Positions 8,951 through 14,290 of a stretch of 16,063 bases of DNA are shown here, piece after piece. Position 1 is the first letter of the stretch. Each line of letters starts with the position of its first letter. The translations under genes and the position numbers were made by a program. Origin of the DNA: a virus (lineage: Duplodnaviria > Heunggongvirae > Uroviricota > Caudoviricetes); the IMG/VR virus record IMGVR_UViG_2609459830_000022. One strand, 5' to 3'. The notes beneath the pieces were generated by a model. That model was not told where the DNA came from, did no database searches, and saw only the letters and a program-made list of their open reading frames with translations.

Positions 8951-8980
8951 AACATGACAAAAAGCCGGATTGCTCCGGCT
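8951..8980 (-). terminator. Rho-independent terminator after the PerC-like gene
   Basis: Minus-strand RNA: AGCCGGA-GCAA-UCCGGCU followed by UUUUUGUCAUGUUUUG, beginning 7 nt after the TAA at 8987-8989. Confidence 0.7.
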
Positions 8981-8986
8981 GTGTGA

Positions 8987-9259
8987 TTATCTGTCCTGGT
9001 AATTTCGCCATATTTCATCACCAGCACCATCCATACCCATTTCGGCATAAGTGCGATCGACCGCCTTTTTCAGGTCTCCGTAATTATCCGGCGGCTCCGG
9101 TGGCCTCTGTGCCTTCCTGGAACATTCCAGCCGTCGCATCGTGATATGATGCCGTTCCTTGTCTGTCTCCACCAGTAGCATGACTTCACCCCATCGCGCC
9201 GCCGCCCTCCGGTAAAAGCCTTTCGCCTCGAGTTCTTCCGCTATGCGGTCATGTACCAT
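8987..9259 (-). CDS. Small regulator, PerC-family-like (90 aa)
   Basis: ATG at 9259 preceded by GAGGGGGGGA Shine-Dalgarno. The motif EAKGFYRRAAARWGEVM resembles the PerC/Pch family of small transcriptional activators; the assignment is from memory of the family motif, not a search. Confidence 0.45.
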   Translation of the reverse strand: MVHDRIAEELEAKGFYRRAAARWGEVMLLVETDKERHHITMRRLECSRKAQRPPEPPDNYGDLKKAVDRTYAEMGMDGAGDEIWRNYQDR

Positions 9260-9269
9260 CGTCCCCCCC

Positions 9270-9680
9270 TCAGAACGGAATATCATCACCGTAAGGGTCA
9301 TCGCCTCCCACTGGTGGCTGATTACCCTGTGTGCCAGTGGTCTTGCGTCGGCTCCCACCAGGACGTGCCGCCCGGGCACTGATTACGCTGTCTGCAATAA
9401 CCTGATAACCCTGCCGCGTTTCCCCGTTCTGTCCGGTCCACTGGCTGACCTGCATGTTACCCGCCACGGTCAGGAGTTCACCCTTGCGGTGCCTTGCCAG
9501 TGCTTCGGCCTGTCTGCCAAATGCCAGGTCGGATAACCACATCGTCGCCGTTCCGTCATCTGCCTGGCTGCACGGAAGGGGGACCGCCATACTCGCCATC
9601 GTCATTTGTGTACCCTTGCTGGTGGTCTTTAACTGCGGGTCAGCCACCAGCCGCCCGTAAGCTGCAATTTGTGCTGTCAT
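9270..9680 (-). CDS. ssb: Single-stranded DNA-binding protein (SSB-like), 136 aa
   Basis: OB-fold-like N-terminal region, Gly/Pro-rich linker and the acidic C-terminal tip DDIPF diagnostic of SSB. GAGGTGG Shine-Dalgarno before ATG 9680. Confidence 0.8.
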   Translation of the reverse strand: MTAQIAAYGRLVADPQLKTTSKGTQMTMASMAVPLPCSQADDGTATMWLSDLAFGRQAEALARHRKGELLTVAGNMQVSQWTGQNGETRQGYQVIADSVISARAARPGGSRRKTTGTQGNQPPVGGDDPYGDDIPF

Positions 9681-9689
9681 ATTGCCACC

Positions 9690-9995
9690 TCAGTGAAGCG
9701 ATCCGGCGTTATTCTTTTTCATCTCTTCCATCATTTTTTCAGTGAGCATTACGCACTGAAAACCCATGTTTTTGATGTCTACGGGCTTCATGCCTTTATC
9801 AGTGGATATCACAGGAAGAATATCCTGATACACATCGCGGTCAGGGTAACTAAGCACACAAAGCGCCCATGATGCCACGGGTGAGGATCCTTCGTCTGTT
9901 TCAACCCACCAGCCTGGTGTAGCTGCGCTTATTTGCAGAATCGTGATCAGTCCGTTGTGCTTGTAAAGTTTTTCACCAAATTTTGGTTCGCTCAT
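9690..9995 (-). CDS. Hypothetical protein (101 aa)
   Basis: ATG at 9995 with GAGAGGTGG Shine-Dalgarno and ATGA overlap with the upstream gene. No recognisable motif. Confidence 0.5.
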   Translation of the reverse strand: MSEPKFGEKLYKHNGLITILQISAATPGWWVETDEGSSPVASWALCVLSYPDRDVYQDILPVISTDKGMKPVDIKNMGFQCVMLTEKMMEEMKKNNAGSLH

Positions 9996-10243
9996 GATTC
10001 CACCTCTCCGGTTTTAACGTTGATGGTTGTTACCTGTTCCGCTTCGGCAATCTCCCGTTCTGTCAGCGTGGCAAAGTTTGCCGCCGCCGTGGTCATGAAT
10101 GCGCTTATCAGGTCGGGATGTTCCTTCGCGTATCCTTCCCGCGTGTGGCGGTCTATCGTTCTGATTGCCACCTTTAAGGTGTGCTCAGTCATGTCTAACG
10201 CTTTATATTTTGGCTCTGTTCTGTCTCTGCGTTTTTGGGTCAT
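9992..10243 (-). CDS. Hypothetical protein (83 aa from ATG 10243; ORF track extends to GTG 10273)
   Basis: ORF immediately downstream of the iteron region. Start choice is uncertain: ATG at 10243 and ATG at 10192 are both possible. Confidence 0.4.
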   Translation of the reverse strand: MTQKRRDRTEPKYKALDMTEHTLKVAIRTIDRHTREGYAKEHPDLISAFMTTAAANFATLTEREIAEAEQVTTINVKTGEVES

Positions 10244-10253
10244 TTCTCGCAAC

Positions 10254-10447
10254 CTCTCACTTTTTCGCCTCACTTTTTCAAGCGTCTCACTTCGTCGCAG
10301 CTGGGATTTTCGGTTTTTCTATGTGTGTGTTTCATAAGTATTTTTTTACCCCTCACTTTTGAGGATGTATACAGGTCGAAAAGTGAGGGAGAGCAGGCTA
10401 ATTTTGGCCCTCTTTCTATCCACCTCGCTTTTGCTCCTCACTTTTAT
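10254..10447. repeat. Iteron cluster, putative replication origin (7 copies of CTCACTTTT, one inverted, flanking an A/T-rich core)
   Basis: Copies at about 10256, 10269, 10286 (imperfect), 10352, 10379 (inverted), 10424 (imperfect) and 10437. The A/T-rich stretch is at 10300-10350. The cluster sits immediately 3-prime of the primase-helicase gene (stop 10444-10446). Confidence 0.7.
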
Positions 10448-11844
10448 AGCGGTGCTACATCATCCCCATCGATACGAATAACCCCATCTTTTTCCAGCTT
10501 GTACAGCCAGCGCCGGAAGTTTTTCATTTCATACCCCAGCTTTTTCATGTCATCACGTAACAGCGGGATCGTGCACTTGTCGCCGTTCTGTGTGCGTGAA
10601 CGGATGCACCCCCATAGCGCGGTATGGTTTTCCGTCTTGTTCCCTGCCTCCTCGATGCGCTCCAGTTCAACAGGAGGGCGCGGATCATCCACCACCACCA
10701 GCGACGTGATTAATTCACCGTCAGCGTCGGTAAAAAGCTCCACCACGCGTAAGTCATATGCGGCTTCTTTGAGTTCCTCCGCGTCCTTCATTTTGGTGCA
10801 TGAGATAACCAGCGCTTCGCTTCCTGCGTCCTCCCTGCGTATCCGGTATTCAGCATCCAGCGAAGCACGAAATGCACTGGAACCGCGCGCGCCTTTCGTC
10901 TCATCCTTGCCGGAATGGTGAACCACCAGCACCGTGGCCCCTGTGCGTCGTTTCAGTTCGTCACAACCACGGATAAACGCCCCCATATCACGGGAATCAT
11001 TTTCATCATTCCCACCAAAGCAACGCGCCAGCGTATCCAGAATAATCATGCGTACAGGTTTACCCGTTTCCCGCTCCACCTGACGGGCAGCGATAACCAT
11101 TTCATCAACATCAAGCGGGGCAGCCGGAAAGATGGGGCGGTTTACCAGATACAGATTTTTCACCTGCTCATCGTGCACAACCTCCCAGGCTTTTACACGA
11201 CGCGGAACACCTATACCGCCTTCACCGACCACATAGAGAACCGCACCATGTGCAACCCTGCGGCCTCCCCACTGGCGACCAGTGGCAACATGGCACGCCC
11301 ACGATCCGGCAAGGAATGATTTATAGGACCCGCTAGCCCCGTATATGCTGCATAGCGATACCGCCGGAATAATCCCCTTAACCACGTAATCCAGTTGCGT
11401 GTCGTATCCGGTAGATCCAACGCTCATCGGTAGCGTGGTTTTTCGCTGGTGGTTTTTTTCTTCCGCCGGCTCTTTCCCACGCACCCGTTCCAGGTATTCG
11501 CGCCAGTTCTCCCGCATATGGCTGTGCATCCCTTCGGGGTAATAATTCGCATCAGTTACACCCGCCGCCGCCAGCTTGTGCGCAATGGCATTAATATTTG
11601 ATGGCCTGATGTGGCCTGCCTTGTACAGCCGGACACAATAGCGCCCCTCGTCGATGATTCTCAGGTCTGCCAGTTCATCCAGTTGATCATCAGCCAGCAC
11701 AACGGGAGGCACATTATCGCCAGCCAGTCGCCCGTCCTGTTCCTGCCACTGTTTCGCATGTGCCCAGGCATCACTACCCGCAAAAATAATGACTTCGGTC
11801 ATCTTGTCGTAAGGCTGTTTTTTTAAGTTCGGTGCGCTTTTCAT
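10444..11844 (-). CDS. Replication initiator: Toprim-like N-domain + RecA-like (RepA/AAA_25-type) ATPase + C-terminal winged-helix; PICI pri-rep-like
   Basis: P-loop-like IYGASGSYKSF, RepA-like segment ILDTLARCFGGNDENDSRDMGAFIRGCDELKRRTGATVLVVHHSGKD, N-terminal VIIFAGSDAWAHA Toprim-like segment. Followed by the iterons. Confidence 0.78.
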   Translation of the reverse strand: MKSAPNLKKQPYDKMTEVIIFAGSDAWAHAKQWQEQDGRLAGDNVPPVVLADDQLDELADLRIIDEGRYCVRLYKAGHIRPSNINAIAHKLAAAGVTDANYYPEGMHSHMRENWREYLERVRGKEPAEEKNHQRKTTLPMSVGSTGYDTQLDYVVKGIIPAVSLCSIYGASGSYKSFLAGSWACHVATGRQWGGRRVAHGAVLYVVGEGGIGVPRRVKAWEVVHDEQVKNLYLVNRPIFPAAPLDVDEMVIAARQVERETGKPVRMIILDTLARCFGGNDENDSRDMGAFIRGCDELKRRTGATVLVVHHSGKDETKGARGSSAFRASLDAEYRIRREDAGSEALVISCTKMKDAEELKEAAYDLRVVELFTDADGELITSLVVVDDPRPPVELERIEEAGNKTENHTALWGCIRSRTQNGDKCTIPLLRDDMKKLGYEMKNFRRWLYKLEKDGVIRIDGDDVAPL

Positions 11845-12140
11845 TTCTTGCCCCTGAATCCGTTAACCATGGTTTTCAGCTTCTGGATGTTTGCCCGTGC
11901 CCTGGCGTTGCTGGTGGGCACGTTATGCGGCGCGGTCTGTACCAGAGAAAAATCACGCCGGAACTGATAAACAGGCATCACGCAATCATATTCGTAACCT
12001 TCACGGCGGTAAGTTACGCACCGTCCCGCCACGCCCTTAATCATTACCGTGCCGCCGTACTGGTCGCGGTAAATATCACCGCGCATAAATTTAGGGTGAG
12101 TGTTGCCACTGGCAGTTAAGCCAGAATATTTAAGTTTCAT
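11841..12140 (-). CDS. Hypothetical protein (99 aa), translationally coupled to the primase-helicase
   Basis: ATG at 12140; its stop overlaps the primase start (ATGA). Confidence 0.5.
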   Translation of the reverse strand: MKLKYSGLTASGNTHPKFMRGDIYRDQYGGTVMIKGVAGRCVTYRREGYEYDCVMPVYQFRRDFSLVQTAPHNVPTSNARARANIQKLKTMVNGFRGKK

Positions 12141-12145
12141 TATTT

Positions 12146-12379
12146 TTATTCTCCGGTGTGCTGTTCGTTATATCTGTCGTGCAATGTCTCTATTTCCTGC
12201 AACTCATTTATTACAGGCTCAAGAAGCGTTATTAATGATGTAATAATCCGCGTTTTTTTTGCATTACGTTCATTATCGCCAAAGGATTCAAGGCACATCC
12301 GCAATATTTCGTACATACCTTCAGCGTAAGCAAGGGCACTAAATGCGCGGTCTATTGTTTCAAGATAAATATCACGCAT
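12146..12379 (-). CDS. Small hypothetical protein (77 aa), member of a tandem paralog trio
   Basis: ATG at 12379 with GGGGA Shine-Dalgarno. Shares the MRD start and an EI-R ... I--LI pattern with the next gene. Confidence 0.45.
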   Translation of the reverse strand: MRDIYLETIDRAFSALAYAEGMYEILRMCLESFGDNERNAKKTRIITSLITLLEPVINELQEIETLHDRYNEQHTGE

Positions 12380-12380
12380 A

Positions 12381-12602
12381 TTAATCCCCGTCCGTTGTTT
12401 TTCTTAAAACAGCTTCTGTCACGAAATCAGCATAGTTAGCGGCAATATCAAGAATATTTAGCCCTGTACCTCTGTGCTCATCAGTGCAAAGAAAGAAAAA
12501 AGCCACCCGCATAATTTCAGATATTGACGAAAGCGCATCAGCCGCATCATCAGGAACGCCGGAAAATTCTTGTTTCAGGGAATTAAAACGATCATCACGC
12601 AT
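12381..12602 (-). CDS. Small hypothetical protein (73 aa), paralog of the 77-aa and 80-aa neighbours
   Basis: ATG at 12602 immediately preceded by a G9 homopolymer on the coding strand (C9 at 12605-12613 on plus). Confidence 0.45.
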   Translation of the reverse strand: MRDDRFNSLKQEFSGVPDDAADALSSISEIMRVAFFFLCTDEHRGTGLNILDIAANYADFVTEAVLRKTTDGD

Positions 12603-12817
12603 AACCCCCCCCCATTTTCACAATCAGCAACAAGAATATTTTTAGCGTCATTCAGCGACCGCGTTGCGATGTATCGGATACATTCCAGGGCGAACGTTGT
12701 CCGGTCTTTCTGTTCTTCTCCCTGCGCAAGCTCTGCCGTGCATTCAATATCAATAAGCGCGTGCATCAGCGTAGTGAGCGCGGCGGCGGCTGCGTCCGGT
12801 GTGGTTTTATTGCACAT
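12575..12817 (-). CDS. Small hypothetical protein (80 aa from ATG 12817), third paralog
   Basis: ATG at 12817 preceded by a strong AGGAGG Shine-Dalgarno. Segment TPDAAAAALTTL resembles VPDDAADALSSI of the 73-aa gene. Its C-terminus (GGG) reads through the G9 tract. Confidence 0.4.
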   Translation of the reverse strand: MCNKTTPDAAAAALTTLMHALIDIECTAELAQGEEQKDRTTFALECIRYIATRSLNDAKNILVADCENGGGLCVMIVLIP

Positions 12818-12980
12818 GGCACACCTCCTGACGAATACGGGCGACAAAAATCAGATGTGCGTGCGGCAGCTGTGCACGTGCTTCGCGCTCAGTGGCAGCG
12901 GTAACGGTGAATATTGCAATACTGTCTGTCAGGCACTGCATAAAGCGCCAGACAAAATAAGGGCGTGTGAATACAGCCAT
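12807..12980 (-). CDS. Icd-like small protein (host cell-division-inhibitor-like), copy B, 57 aa
   Basis: ATG at 12980 with TAGGAGCC Shine-Dalgarno. Motif FVWRF ... TAATEREARAQLP ... LIFVARIRQ is shared with copy A. Family assignment is from memory of the conserved motif. Confidence 0.45.
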   Translation of the reverse strand: MAVFTRPYFVWRFMQCLTDSIAIFTVTAATEREARAQLPHAHLIFVARIRQEVCHVQ

Positions 12981-13266
12981 GTGAAAGGCTCCTACAGTAA
13001 TTTTAAGGAGTCTCGCTACTACGCTGTCAAACATGGTGGCGAGACGTAACAGGGTTGACAGACTGGCACTGTAGAGACCAGCGAGCGCAAAGGCTCCCCC
13101 GTTACGCCCCGCCATAATGCGGGTATGGGTAGGTTTACGGACACAAAAAAACCGCATATCGGAATGTAAGCGGCTGTCCGCTACAGTATTCAGGCTGTCA
13201 AACCCGGTCGCCATGTGGGCGACGGGGGAAGCATACAGCCCCGTGATAATTTTTTGCAAGCGGTTT

Positions 13267-13464
13267 TTACGCATGATGTGACCCCTGACGAATACGGGCG
13301 GCAAATACAGCAACACAACCTGACGGGCAACGGCTACGCGCTTCGCGTTCCGTCCAGGCGGTTACGTGGATGATTTGAGATTCTCCGGCACTCAGTGCCA
13401 GAAAACGCCACACAAAGGCCGTTTGTGTGTGTACAAGGTGTGGTATATGATTTACGGCAACCAT
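13267..13464 (-). CDS. Icd-like small protein, copy A, 65 aa
   Basis: ATG at 13464 with TAGGAGCC Shine-Dalgarno. Motif FVWRF ... TAWTEREARSRCP ... AVFAARIRQ. Confidence 0.5.
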   Translation of the reverse strand: MVAVNHIPHLVHTQTAFVWRFLALSAGESQIIHVTAWTEREARSRCPSGCVAVFAARIRQGSHHA

Positions 13465-13537
13465 AACGGCTCCTAGTTTACGTTGTTGGTTAGAAGCCCT
13501 GCGAGTGGTAATGACACTTGCGGGGCTTTGCTTTTTT
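13458..13537 (+). ncRNA. Candidate small cis-antisense RNA overlapping the start and Shine-Dalgarno of Icd-like copy A
   Basis: Plus-strand promoter-like TTGTGT (13423-13428), 17-nt spacer, TATGAT (13446-13451). Plus-strand-specific terminator at 13496-13537. No plus-strand ORF lies in between. Confidence 0.3.
13496..13537 (+). terminator. Rho-independent terminator, plus-strand specific
   Basis: 12-bp stem gccctgcgagtg / cacttgcggggc (two G-U wobbles on the plus RNA, which are C-A and U-C mismatches on the minus RNA), 7-nt loop, then TTTGCTTTTTT. Confidence 0.6.
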
Positions 13538-13553
13538 AAGTGCTCTTGTGTTA

Positions 13554-13600
13554 AGGTGACCACCTAACAATGGAAAGGCTAATTCAATAGGTGACCACTT
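13554..13600. promoter_or_regulatory. Two operator-like palindromes AGGTGACCACCT (13554-13565) and AGGTGACCACTT (13589-13600) in the divergent control region
   Basis: Inverted-repeat arms AGGTG/CACCT with centres 35 bp apart. The second overlaps the Shine-Dalgarno and TTG start of the RHH gene. A TTGACA hexamer on the minus strand (13605-13600) lies between them. Confidence 0.5.
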
Positions 13601-13790
13601 GTCAACAATCAAACGCGATAAAAGCCCTAAAGGGGACGGGCAATCCCCACAATTCAGAATGCGAATTTCTCCAGAGCTAAAAGAGCAATTCGACAAAGAA
13701 GCACAGAGCGACGGCATAAGCCTAGCCAACTGGCTTAAAGAGTTGGGGCGCACTGAACTAAAGCGGCGCGGCATAGAACCCAAAGGATAA
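13599..13790 (+). CDS. Arc/Mnt-like ribbon-helix-helix DNA-binding protein (63 aa, TTG start)
   Basis: SPQFRMRISPELKEQFDKEAQSDGISLANWLKELG matches the beta-strand / helix A / helix B pattern of P22 Arc (PQFNLRWPREVLDLVRKVAEENGRSVNSEIYQRV). Start must be upstream of the PQF strand; TTG at 13599 has AGGTGA 4 nt upstream. Confidence 0.55.
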   Translation: MSTIKRDKSPKGDGQSPQFRMRISPELKEQFDKEAQSDGISLANWLKELGRTELKRRGIEPKG

Positions 13791-13847
13791 AAACTATCAG
13801 CGCCGTGGTGTGAGGTATTACGGCGCATTGCTATGCAGGACAACACA

Positions 13848-14021
13848 ATGACCGATAAAGAATTGACCAAAACATTATCACCGGCACGGAAAAGACGGCG
13901 CAGAAAGATAGAGCATGAATCAGAAAGATTCGCGCCATGTGCTTTTGCCCTTGAGCAATTCCTTAAAGAGTATAGGGAAAAGCGCTCATTGCAGGTATGG
14001 CAACGAACTGAACCAGACTGA
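13848..14021 (+). CDS. Small basic hypothetical protein (57 aa from ATG 13848; ORF track starts at ATG 13833)
   Basis: ORF downstream of the RHH gene in the same plus-strand unit. AGGA 8 nt before ATG 13848. Arg/Lys-rich N-terminal half. No recognised family. Confidence 0.3.
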   Translation: MTDKELTKTLSPARKRRRRKIEHESERFAPCAFALEQFLKEYREKRSLQVWQRTEPD

Positions 14022-14115
14022 TTGCATTGCCCACCAGCCTGATAGCGGCTATCATCCCCGTGCTTATGTTTGGGATCACATACACATAAGGCGCAGCGGG
14101 TTATCTGTTCAGAAA

Positions 14116-14144
14116 GGCGGCTCCATTTCGGGGCCGCTTTTTTT
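14116..14144 (+). terminator. Rho-independent terminator closing the plus-strand RHH unit
   Basis: ggcggctcc-atttc-ggggccgc followed by T7. The stem has one G-U wobble on the plus RNA that is a mismatch on the minus RNA. Confidence 0.7.
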
Positions 14145-14290
14145 ATGCCTGAAAAACCCCAATTTTGTGGTTTTCCAGTCTCACCAGGGCGAACGAATCC
14201 CCGCCCACGTTCTGGCGTATATTCAATCTTCATGGTTATAGCTCTGTGTTCAGATGATTGATGTGTGGCGGCTGCGTGCCGCCAGCGTGA

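What the first reader, a model, noticed from the sequence alone, without database searches (positions are those of the whole stretch)
10254..10447. Iteron-type replication origin immediately 3-prime of the primase-helicase gene
Seven copies of CTCACTTTT (five exact, two one-mismatch; one in inverted orientation) surround an A/T-rich stretch at 10300-10350; the last copy overlaps the helicase stop codon. Satellite islands of the SaPI/PICI type place their origin as iterons just downstream of the rep gene, and the initiator here has a C-terminal winged-helix-like segment that could bind them.
Basis: partly seen in the sequence, partly recalled or inferred. Interest (0 to 1): 0.6.

Follow-up and report, generated by a model that had tools for sequence, protein, structure and literature searches.

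The report
Satellite island replication origin with iterons
The 200-bp gap after the helicase gene is very probably the replication origin of an E. coli phage-satellite island, built from short repeats that the helicase's own DNA-binding tail recognises; this layout is already known for such islands, so the finding is sound but ordinary.

Summary
The repeats are real and non-random. All lie in the 200-bp gap between the helicase stop and the next gene, flanking an A/T-rich stretch.

The window is a capsid-forming PICI between phoQ and roxA. In 148 non-redundant related loci from many Enterobacterales the array layout is conserved while the repeat sequence changes. The repeat's fourth core base (GTG-N-G) tracks one residue, N442, at the start of the recognition helix of a predicted C-terminal winged helix: N→A, H→G, K→G, S/G→C, 144/148 concordant.

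Compared with Sakai Sp7 (the EcCIEDL933-type island at this site), homology breaks exactly over ori + helicase core + winged helix. Sp7 has a DUF927 helicase and TAACCCGCA repeats there instead.

So this is an initiator-cognate iteron origin of the published PICI type. The same cassette (99% identical) sits in EcCI042. The "primase" label is not supported: only a RepA-type (AAA_25) helicase core is detectable. Nothing was tested experimentally here.

Novelty: new member of a known kind. Interest is low to moderate.

The parts
10244..10446 (.). Proposed origin: the whole intergenic gap from the start codon of the downstream 83-aa gene to the helicase stop codon
   Evidence: All repeat copies and the A/T-rich core lie here, and the same slot and layout recur in 148 related loci.
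10437..10445 (+). Iteron, exact CTCACTTTT (AAAAGTGAG on the gene-sense strand); overlaps the helicase stop codon by 2 nt
   Evidence: In 100/148 relatives a core lies within -12..+8 of the stop.
10424..10432 (+). Iteron with one mismatch (CTCGCTTTT), 13 bp from the previous copy
   Evidence: An exact copy at this position in relatives.
10379..10387 (-). Iteron, exact; the only copy in inverted orientation
   Evidence: An inverted core at +35..+80 from the stop in 137/148 loci.
10366..10373 (.). Conserved TGTATACA element centred between the inverted iteron pair
   Evidence: A GTATA/TATATA-type element at this position in 138/148 loci.
10352..10360 (+). Iteron, exact; partner of the inverted copy (11-nt perfect inverted repeat CCCTCACTTTT / AAAAGTGAGGG, 18-nt spacer)
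10300..10349 (.). A/T-rich, T-tract-rich core; candidate DNA-unwinding element
   Evidence: GC 0.33. (99.6th percentile of duplex instability in the window). (AT 0.62 at the equivalent position in 148 loci against 0.47 in the gene).
10286..10294 (+). Degenerate iteron CTCACTTCG (two mismatches; 7-nt core intact)
10269..10277 (+). Iteron, exact
10256..10264 (+). Iteron, exact; its GAGAGG on the sense strand lies about 10 nt upstream of the next gene's ATG (10243), so it may double as the ribosome-binding site
   Evidence: The RBS overlap is read from the sequence only.
10444..11844 (-). Cognate initiator: 466-aa RepA-family (AAA_25, RecA-fold) helicase
   Evidence: AAA_25, E = 2e-43, residues 148-315. 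(RSF1010 RepA structure 1g8y, E = 5e-5). (annotated as 'helicase RepA family protein').
10447..10647 (-). C-terminal winged-helix domain (residues about 400-466); recognition helix 443-452
   Evidence: pLDDT about 85-90; H-H-H-beta-beta topology. (Foldseek hits are all winged-helix domains: DtxR/IdeR, MarR, Fur, cullin WHB, MCM4).
10519..10521 (-). Codon of Asn442, the N-cap of the recognition helix; the proposed specificity residue for the A in GTG-A-G
   Evidence: N->A 38/39, H->G 41/42, K->G 36/38, S/G->C 29/29 loci. L098 and L099 differ only at 442 and 452 in the last 62 aa, yet all their iterons switch.
10246..11489 (.). Replicon cassette (origin + helicase core + winged helix): the one block without homology to Sakai Sp7 inside the stretch 8959-12155 that is otherwise alignable

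Best explanation
Window 10244-10446 is most likely the vegetative replication origin of a capsid-forming phage-inducible chromosomal island (cf-PICI) integrated between phoQ and roxA.

Layout, read on the gene-sense strand: two iterons (AAAAGTGAGG) start at the helicase stop codon; then an inverted-plus-direct iteron pair brackets a conserved TGTATACA; then a ~50-bp A/T-rich stretch; then three more direct iterons, ending just before the next gene.

Proposed mechanism: when the island is induced, the upstream 466-aa RepA-family (SF4-like, RecA-fold) helicase is made. Its C-terminal winged helix binds the iterons, with Asn442 at the start of the recognition helix reading the A of GTG-A-G. The bound protein melts the A/T-rich core and loads itself as a ring helicase. 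Priming probably comes from host DnaG, because no primase domain is detectable. The island's own SSB gene lies nearby.

Shown here: the repeats; their conservation and architecture; the winged-helix model; the residue-base covariation; and the co-inheritance of origin and helicase as one cassette.

Inferred: binding, melting, self-loading and the source of primers.
For: - Clustering far beyond chance, and conservation of iteron columns.
- The same architecture in 148 non-redundant loci from E. coli, Xenorhabdus, Pectobacterium, Serratia, Morganella, Yersinia, Pantoea and others, even though the iteron sequence differs. Median 6 direct + 1 inverted cores against 0.31 per equal length of adjacent coding DNA; 137/148 have the inverted copy; 138/148 have the TATA-type element; the middle is A/T-rich.
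- Of the window's neighbouring proteins tested, only the helicase core + C-terminal domain is present at all 164 loci; the 83-aa downstream gene is in 43, and DUF4222 in 55.
- The C-terminal domain is modelled as a winged helix with pLDDT about 85-90, and its structural neighbours are winged helices.
- Residue 442 and iteron base 4 agree in 144/148 loci. On a tree there are at least 14 residue changes and at least 13 base changes, with 134/136 tips concordant. One near-isogenic pair differs only at positions 442 and 452.
- Against Sakai Sp7, homology breaks exactly at 10246-11489. Sp7 carries a DUF927 + HTH_56 helicase there, followed by 11 exact TAACCCGCA repeats.
- The same syntenic slot in EcCICFT073 was shown experimentally to act as a rep-dependent origin. 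[quoted passage not shown]
- A cf-PICI with this helicase type is deposited as a 17-kb circular molecule.
- No promoter-like or minus-strand terminator-like site and no Rfam family is found in the gap.
Against: - There is no experimental test of this cassette. The island that carries an almost identical one (EcCI042) gave no transfer in the one published test; that test does not address replication.
- Six of seven copies point the same way. SaPI origins are described as having iterons pointing in opposite directions on each side of the A/T region.
- The A/T-rich core is only the fifth least stable stretch of the window.
- Foldseek E-values for the small domain are weak (0.04-0.2).
- The covariation is partly phylogenetic linkage. 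Mosaic recombination can inflate the count of independent changes.
- No primase is identified, so a step of the mechanism is missing.
Confidence: 0.85

Rival explanations
1. The repeats are an operator array. The helicase's winged helix, or another island regulator, binds them to control transcription running from the replication genes into the downstream 83-aa gene, SSB, PerC and the capsid operon. They would not be there to start replication.
For: The gap lies inside a co-directional gene string. The distal iteron overlaps the likely ribosome-binding site of the next gene. Winged helices are typical of transcription factors.
Against: No sigma-70-like promoter or minus-strand terminator is found in the gap. 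The binder is fused to a ring helicase. The array keeps an A/T-rich centre and an inverted pair around a TATA-like element in 148 loci, including loci where the downstream genes are unrelated. The equivalent slot in EcCICFT073 supports rep-dependent plasmid maintenance. A regulatory side-effect of binding is not excluded.
Confidence: 0.06
2. It is an origin, but the iterons are read by a different protein, such as the 83-aa downstream product, the DUF4222/RgdR protein or a host factor like DnaA. The helicase would be recruited secondarily, as RSF1010 RepA is recruited by RepC.
For: In the best-studied RepA helicase system (RSF1010), a separate initiator binds the iterons (my knowledge of the IncQ literature). 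DUF4222 and the 83-aa gene are adjacent. A DnaA-box-like TATCCAC sits at 10417-10423.
Against: The 83-aa gene is present at only 43/164 loci and DUF4222 at 55/164, yet the array and its match to helicase residue 442 persist in the rest. The TATCCAC is not conserved; relatives have a third iteron at that position. The Sp7 comparison keeps DUF4222 and the 83-aa gene but replaces the repeats together with the helicase C-terminus.
Confidence: 0.05
3. The repeats are a packaging signal (cos/pac) for the island's own terminase.
For: The island encodes its own small and large terminase and an HNH protein, and terminase small subunits often bind repeated sites.
Against: The array is about 5.8 kb from the terminase small-subunit gene. 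It travels with the helicase in elements that have quite different packaging modules, or none nearby. It co-varies with the helicase. Sp7 has 97%-identical packaging genes but entirely different repeats.
Confidence: 0.02
4. The repeats are a chance or decaying low-complexity feature without function.
For: Short T-rich 9-mers are common. One copy is degenerate and one has a mismatch.
Against: Six hits fall in 194 bp against 0.04 expected. Position-specific conservation extends across genera, with concerted change of every copy.
Confidence: 0.01

Closest known systems
EcCI042 (E. coli 042 PICI; 'Pri-Rep' CBG34588 in Fillol-Salom et al. 2018, PMC6092414)
   Same: The helicase is 465/466 aa identical and the 200-bp gap is 99% identical, with every iteron conserved. 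The gene order DUF4222 - helicase - gap - 83-aa gene - SSB - PerC is the same.
   Different: EcCI042 sits at tqsA and is a classical PICI with a different, smaller packaging region. The window is a capsid-forming island at phoQ/roxA. I could not see the paper's Fig. 2a, so I cannot say whether this exact origin was drawn there. It was not tested experimentally in the text held.
EcCICFT073 pri-rep-ori (experimentally tested Gram-negative PICI replicon)
   Same: Same chromosomal attachment site and the same slot (rep - gap - 83-aa gene homologue - SSB - PerC). The paper describes two iteron sets flanking an A/T-rich region 3' of rep, with rep- and ori-dependent plasmid maintenance.
   Different: Its rep is a 584-aa 'DNA primase family protein', not a RepA/AAA_25 helicase, and its gap is 288 bp. 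Only the N-terminal ~130 aa and DUF4222 are related to the window.
Sakai Sp7 / CP-933C / EcCIEDL933-type cf-PICI
   Same: Same site. Integrase region about 96% and packaging module about 97% identical. DUF4222/RgdR, the 83-aa gene, SSB and PerC are homologous. An iteron array follows the rep gene.
   Different: Its replicon cassette is a 710-aa protein with DUF927 + HTH_56 and 11 exact TAACCCGCA repeats in a 370-bp gap. No homology to window 10246-11489.
SaPI Rep / ori (S. aureus pathogenicity islands)
   Same: A self-loading helicase-initiator with a C-terminal winged helix that reads 5-6-nt iterons placed immediately after the rep ORF, around a central A/T-rich region (PMC9371898).
   Different: SaPI Reps are AAA+ helicases (PMC9371898). 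The window protein has a RecA-fold RepA/AAA_25 core. The SaPI description has iterons in opposite orientation on the two sides; here six of seven copies are co-oriented.
RSF1010 (IncQ) RepA helicase and oriV
   Same: The ATPase core is homologous (PDB 1g8y, E = 5e-5 over residues 154-319; Pfam AAA_25). The origin combines iterons with an A/T-rich region.
   Different: From my knowledge of the IncQ literature, RSF1010 RepA has no DNA-recognition domain and depends on a separate initiator (RepC) and a dedicated primase (RepB'). Here the helicase carries its own winged helix.
Satellite phage P4 alpha protein with ori/crr
   Same: A multidomain replication protein of an E. coli satellite whose C-terminal domain binds short repeated sites (comparison made in PMC6092414; otherwise my knowledge).
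   Different: P4 alpha has a primase domain and an SF3 helicase and needs two separated repeat clusters (ori and crr). The window protein has neither domain, and the window holds a single cluster.

Membership tests
PICI/SaPI-type iteron origin | Lies immediately 3' of the replication initiator/helicase gene of a phage-inducible chromosomal island | tested here: met
   The array starts at the helicase stop codon. The element has an integrase, an HTH regulator, a replication module and a cf-PICI packaging module about 97% identical to Sakai Sp7.
PICI/SaPI-type iteron origin | Two sets of short iterons flanking an A/T-rich region | tested here: met
   Three copies lie distal (10256, 10269, 10286) and four proximal (10352, 10379, 10424, 10437) to the A/T-rich 10300-10349. 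The same holds in 148 loci.
PICI/SaPI-type iteron origin | Iterons on the two sides of the A/T region point in opposite directions (as stated for SaPIs in PMC9371898) | tested here: not met
   Six of seven copies are co-oriented. The single inverted copy (10379) lies on the helicase-proximal side and pairs with 10352. This is the rule in relatives too: median 6 direct, 1 inverted.
PICI/SaPI-type iteron origin | The initiator carries a C-terminal winged helix that specifically recognises the iterons | tested here: inconclusive
   The winged helix is modelled with pLDDT about 85-90 and has only winged-helix structural neighbours. Specific recognition is supported by residue-442/base covariation, 144/148.
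PICI/SaPI-type iteron origin | The cloned rep + ori drive autonomous replication; deleting ori or rep abolishes it | not testable with these tools
   Done only for EcCICFT073 in the literature held. Indirect hint: a cf-PICI with this helicase type is deposited as a 17-kb circular record with no plasmid replicon typed.
SaPI Rep / Cch-type (DUF927, AAA+) self-loading helicases | AAA+ DUF927-type ATPase domain | tested here: not met
   The window protein matches only AAA_25 and RSF1010 RepA. The Sp7 counterpart does match DUF927 + HTH_56.
RSF1010/IncQ-type RepA helicase | RecA-fold RepA ATPase core (AAA_25) with Walker motifs | tested here: met
   AAA_25, E = 2e-43, 148.5 bits against a cutoff of 27. 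PDB 1g8y, E = 5e-5. GxxGxxKS and the hhhhD motif are invariant in alignments.
RSF1010/IncQ-type replicon | A separate iteron-binding initiator (RepC) and a dedicated primase (RepB') with ssi sites | tested here: not met
   No such families were found among the neighbouring ORFs scanned. The DNA-binding domain is fused to the helicase instead.
   The N-terminal 140 aa give no Pfam hit even at E <= 1 and show no BLASTP similarity to the primase part of the Xenorhabdus relative. The 680-690-aa relatives L007 and L054 do have Zn_Ribbon_Prim + Toprim_3. There is only a PHROG 'DNA primase' family hit to an undefined N-terminal segment.
P4 alpha ori/crr system | Two separated clusters of the same repeat, both required | tested here: not met
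   There is only one cluster in 16 kb. The sole other hit (775, one mismatch) lies inside phoQ.

The most novel reading that the evidence does not exclude
A RepA-type (SF4-like, RecA-fold) ring helicase acts as its own origin-recognition protein through a fused winged helix. One residue at the N-cap of the recognition helix (Asn, His, Lys or Ser/Gly) sets which base (A, G, G or C) is accepted at position 4 of a GTGNG iteron. Single-residue switches with concerted change of all 6-8 repeats would then create mutually orthogonal replicons among satellites that share hosts. The DUF4222/RgdR protein plus the shared N-terminal module would be a common adaptor used by three unrelated helicase types.
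Probability: 0.5. Interest if true: 0.5.

Novelty: new member of a known kind. Interest (0 to 1): 0.3.

Why it matters
It assigns a function to a 200-bp gap present in at least 468 of 5,426 complete E. coli genomes, including O157:H7, O26 and O111 strains.

It shows that PICI replicons are exchangeable cassettes (helicase motor + DNA-reading domain + cognate repeats) that can be swapped inside otherwise near-identical islands.

The natural N442/H442 pairs offer a ready-made experiment on how an initiator and its repeated sites change specificity together. That question bears on replicon incompatibility between co-resident satellites.

None of this overturns current views; it extends a published rule to a helicase class that has not been studied biochemically.

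Tried and rejected
- The Foldseek search with the full-length model was uninformative, because the helicase core was poorly modelled (pLDDT 66). I re-modelled the C-terminal 83 aa alone instead.
- A protein search with the C-terminal domain alone returned only E. coli fragments.
- The promoter/terminator scan found no promoter and no minus-strand terminator in 9900-10700. This does not support a regulatory or terminator reading.
- Rfam gave nothing in the gap at the gathering threshold, and only a chance-level SprD hit (15.8 bits against a cutoff of 100) with relaxed settings.
- The DnaA-box-like TATCCAC at 10417-10423 was rejected: it is not conserved, and relatives have a third iteron there.
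- I tested whether the N-terminal domain is a degenerate Toprim. There is no Pfam hit and no BLASTP similarity to the Toprim region of L007, so this stays open.
- The single-strand hairpin formed by the inverted iteron pair (z about -4) follows from the inverted repeat itself, so I did not count it as independent evidence.
- One literature search returned only irrelevant papers.
- The two cf-PICI papers do not mention an origin, iterons or the helicase.

Full report
**Observation**

The gap between the stop codon of the 466-aa ORF (10444-11844, minus strand) and the ATG of the next minus-strand gene (10243) holds the repeats. CTCACTTTT is exact at 10256, 10269, 10352 and 10437 on the plus strand and at 10379 on the minus strand. 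There is a one-mismatch copy at 10424.

Only one other hit with up to one mismatch exists in the 16-kb window, inside phoQ. Shuffles give 3.3 hits per window, so six in 194 bp is about 150-fold above expectation.

The copy at 10437-10445 overlaps the TAA stop (10446..10444). The stretch 10300-10349 is A/T-rich (GC 0.33). It lies in one of the five least stable 30-mer clusters of the window.

**What the element is**

The window runs from phoQ (1-1461) through a terminase, HNH, connector, portal, protease and capsid block. It continues through PerC, SSB, two small ORFs, the gap, the helicase, a DUF4222 gene and small ORFs, and ends with a tyrosine integrase. It is 99.4% identical over the replication region to an island between phoQ and roxA in E. 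coli FORC_042.

The Sakai "prophage Sp7" (CP-933C, the EcCIEDL933-type capsid-forming PICI) occupies the same site. It is 96-99% identical over the integrase and packaging regions. So the window is a cf-PICI.

**The protein next to the repeats**

Pfam finds only AAA_25 (residues 148-315, E = 2e-43). The closest solved structure by sequence is the RSF1010 RepA helicase.

The N-terminal 130-140 residues give no Pfam hit even at E <= 1. They show no similarity to the zinc-ribbon/Toprim part of longer relatives. Those relatives, 680-690 aa in Xenorhabdus and Pectobacterium, do carry Zn_Ribbon_Prim + Toprim_3 in front of the same helicase core. "Primase-helicase" is therefore right for some relatives but unsupported for this protein.

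AlphaFold models place a three-helix, two-strand winged helix at residues about 400-466 with pLDDT 85-90. The helices are 405-419, 426-435 and 443-452; the wing is 456-465. Foldseek neighbours of that domain are all winged helices (DtxR/IdeR, Fur, MarR, IclR, cullin WHB, MCM4, Rpa2), at weak E-values but with rmsd of about 2.4 Å over about 62 residues.

**Comparative evidence**

Five E. coli relatives at 77-92% identity keep every repeat position. In two of them every copy, including the inverted one, reads CCCACTTTT instead of CTCACTTTT.

I then collected 160 loci encoding relatives of the helicase from species genomes and viral contigs. I analysed the 245-260 nt after each stop codon.

The layout is conserved across genera. 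Cores lie at about +2, +15 and +24; an inverted core at about +56; a GTATA/TATATA element; a direct core at about +86; an A/T-rich stretch; and cores at about +150, +170 and +182. The numbers over 148 loci:

| Feature | Value |
|---|---|
| Median direct cores | 6 |
| Median inverted cores | 1 |
| Cores per equal length of adjacent coding DNA | 0.31 |
| Loci with the inverted core | 137/148 |
| Loci with the TATA-type element | 138/148 |
| AT fraction, middle stretch vs gene | 0.62 vs 0.47 |

The repeat sequence itself differs between lineages. It tracks the residue just before the conserved F-x-R-W, which is N442 in the window and the N-cap of the predicted recognition helix:

| Residue at 442 | Iteron core | Concordant loci |
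|---|---|---|
| Asn | GTGAG | 38/39 |
| His | GTGGG | 41/42 |
| Lys | GTGGGGG | 36/38 |
| Ser/Gly | GTGCG | 29/29 |

On a tree built with that position masked, the residue changes at least 14 times and the base at least 13 times, with 134/136 tips concordant. L098 and L099 differ only at positions 442 and 452 in the last 62 residues, yet all their repeats switch between G and A.

The helicase core and C-terminal domain are present at all 164 loci searched. The downstream 83-aa gene is at 43 and DUF4222 at 55. So, of the window's neighbouring proteins, the helicase is the only constant partner of the array.

**Cassette swap**

Against Sakai Sp7, the window aligns on both sides of the replication module: up to 10245 (through the 83-aa gene) and again from 11490 (the helicase N-terminal domain and DUF4222). 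The two short unaligned stretches elsewhere (9692-9991 and 12156-13281) lie outside this module. Nothing aligns for 10246-11489, which is the gap plus the helicase core plus the winged helix.

In that place Sp7 has a 710-aa protein with DUF927 and a Cch-type HTH. It is followed by a 370-bp gap with 11 exact TAACCCGCA copies. EcCICFT073, at the same site, has a third type: a 584-aa "DNA primase family protein" followed by a 288-bp gap. Repeats and the DNA-reading end of the helicase are therefore exchanged as one unit.

**Comparison with what is known**

Fillol-Salom et al. [quoted passage not shown] They showed rep- and ori-dependent plasmid maintenance for EcCICFT073 (PMC6092414).

One of their representative islands, EcCI042, carries a cassette almost identical to the window's: helicase 465/466 identical and gap 99% identical. 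I could not see their Fig. 2a, so I cannot say whether this origin is drawn there. The text held reports no test of it. The two cf-PICI papers do not discuss an origin.

SaPI Reps work on the same logic, with a winged helix reading iterons after the rep ORF. They use an AAA+ motor, and their iterons are described as opposed across the A/T region (PMC9371898). Here the motor is RepA-like and six of seven copies are co-oriented.

**Rivals**

- An operator role is not excluded as a side effect. However, no promoter or minus-strand terminator is predicted, and the array persists where the downstream genes differ.
- A different binder is unlikely, for the reasons given under the comparative evidence and the cassette swap.
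- A packaging site is unlikely. Sp7 has near-identical packaging genes but different repeats.
- Chance is excluded.

**Verdict**

The feature is a member of a published kind of origin, attached to a helicase class that has not been characterised as an initiator. The residue-base relation and the cassette boundaries are the new details. All functional steps (binding, melting, loading, priming) remain inferred.

Noticed in passing
window 13032-13119 (-) and 13187-13236 (-): Rfam finds a C4 antisense RNA (69 bits against a gathering score of 45) and its a1/b1 target element (46.8 against 46.7). They sit next to ORFs annotated in relatives as 'host cell division inhibitor Icd-like'. This points to a P1/P7/P4-style c4-icd immunity module inside the island. 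The long ORFs listed over this stretch (12807-13316, 13490-14233) are probably not all real.
   Followed up: no
window 11841-12140 (-): The DUF4222 gene, whose stop overlaps the helicase start, is a homologue of RgdR/ECs1581: 99 aa with RGD at residues 20-22. RgdR is published only as a regulator of type III secretion (PMC3378721). DUF4222 co-occurs with the helicase N-terminal domain in 52 of 53 loci. It is also kept next to three unrelated helicase types. This hints that its primary role is in island replication.
   Followed up: partly
window 11455-11844 (-), residues 1-130 of the helicase: This N-terminal module has no Pfam family and is modelled as a four-stranded alpha/beta domain (pLDDT about 85). 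It is shared at 45-77% identity with otherwise unrelated PICI replication proteins annotated as DNA primase, DUF927 or DUF5906. Other relatives of the helicase carry a Zn-ribbon/Toprim primase, a different ~110-aa domain, or nothing at this position.
   Followed up: partly
L007 (Xenorhabdus beddingii), about 245-320 nt after the helicase stop: After the cognate GTGAGG array, a second array of GTGGGG-type repeats begins, with its own inverted copy and TGTATAT element. This looks like a second origin of different specificity in tandem.
   Followed up: no
L166 = CP018459.1 (K. pneumoniae pKp_Goe_795-4, 16,971 bp, circular): This record, deposited as a plasmid, is a cf-PICI with integrase, this helicase type, capsid and terminase. 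It also carries a 3.4-kb gene annotated as tail tape measure protein. No plasmid replicon is typed.
   Followed up: no
window 8987-9379 (-): A PerC-family gene (Pfam E = 2e-43) corresponds to pchE of Sakai Sp7. This region is only 86% identical to Sp7, against 97% for the flanking packaging genes.
   Followed up: no
window 10256-10264 and 10243: The last iteron reads GTGAGAGG on the sense strand, about 10 nt upstream of the ATG of the 83-aa gene. Origin binding could therefore occlude that gene's ribosome-binding site or its DNA template.
   Followed up: no
window 9690-9995 (-): This 101-aa ORF between the 83-aa gene and SSB is found in only 8 of 164 related loci. It is absent from the O157:H7 copies of the cassette, where SSB directly follows the 83-aa gene.
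   Followed up: no
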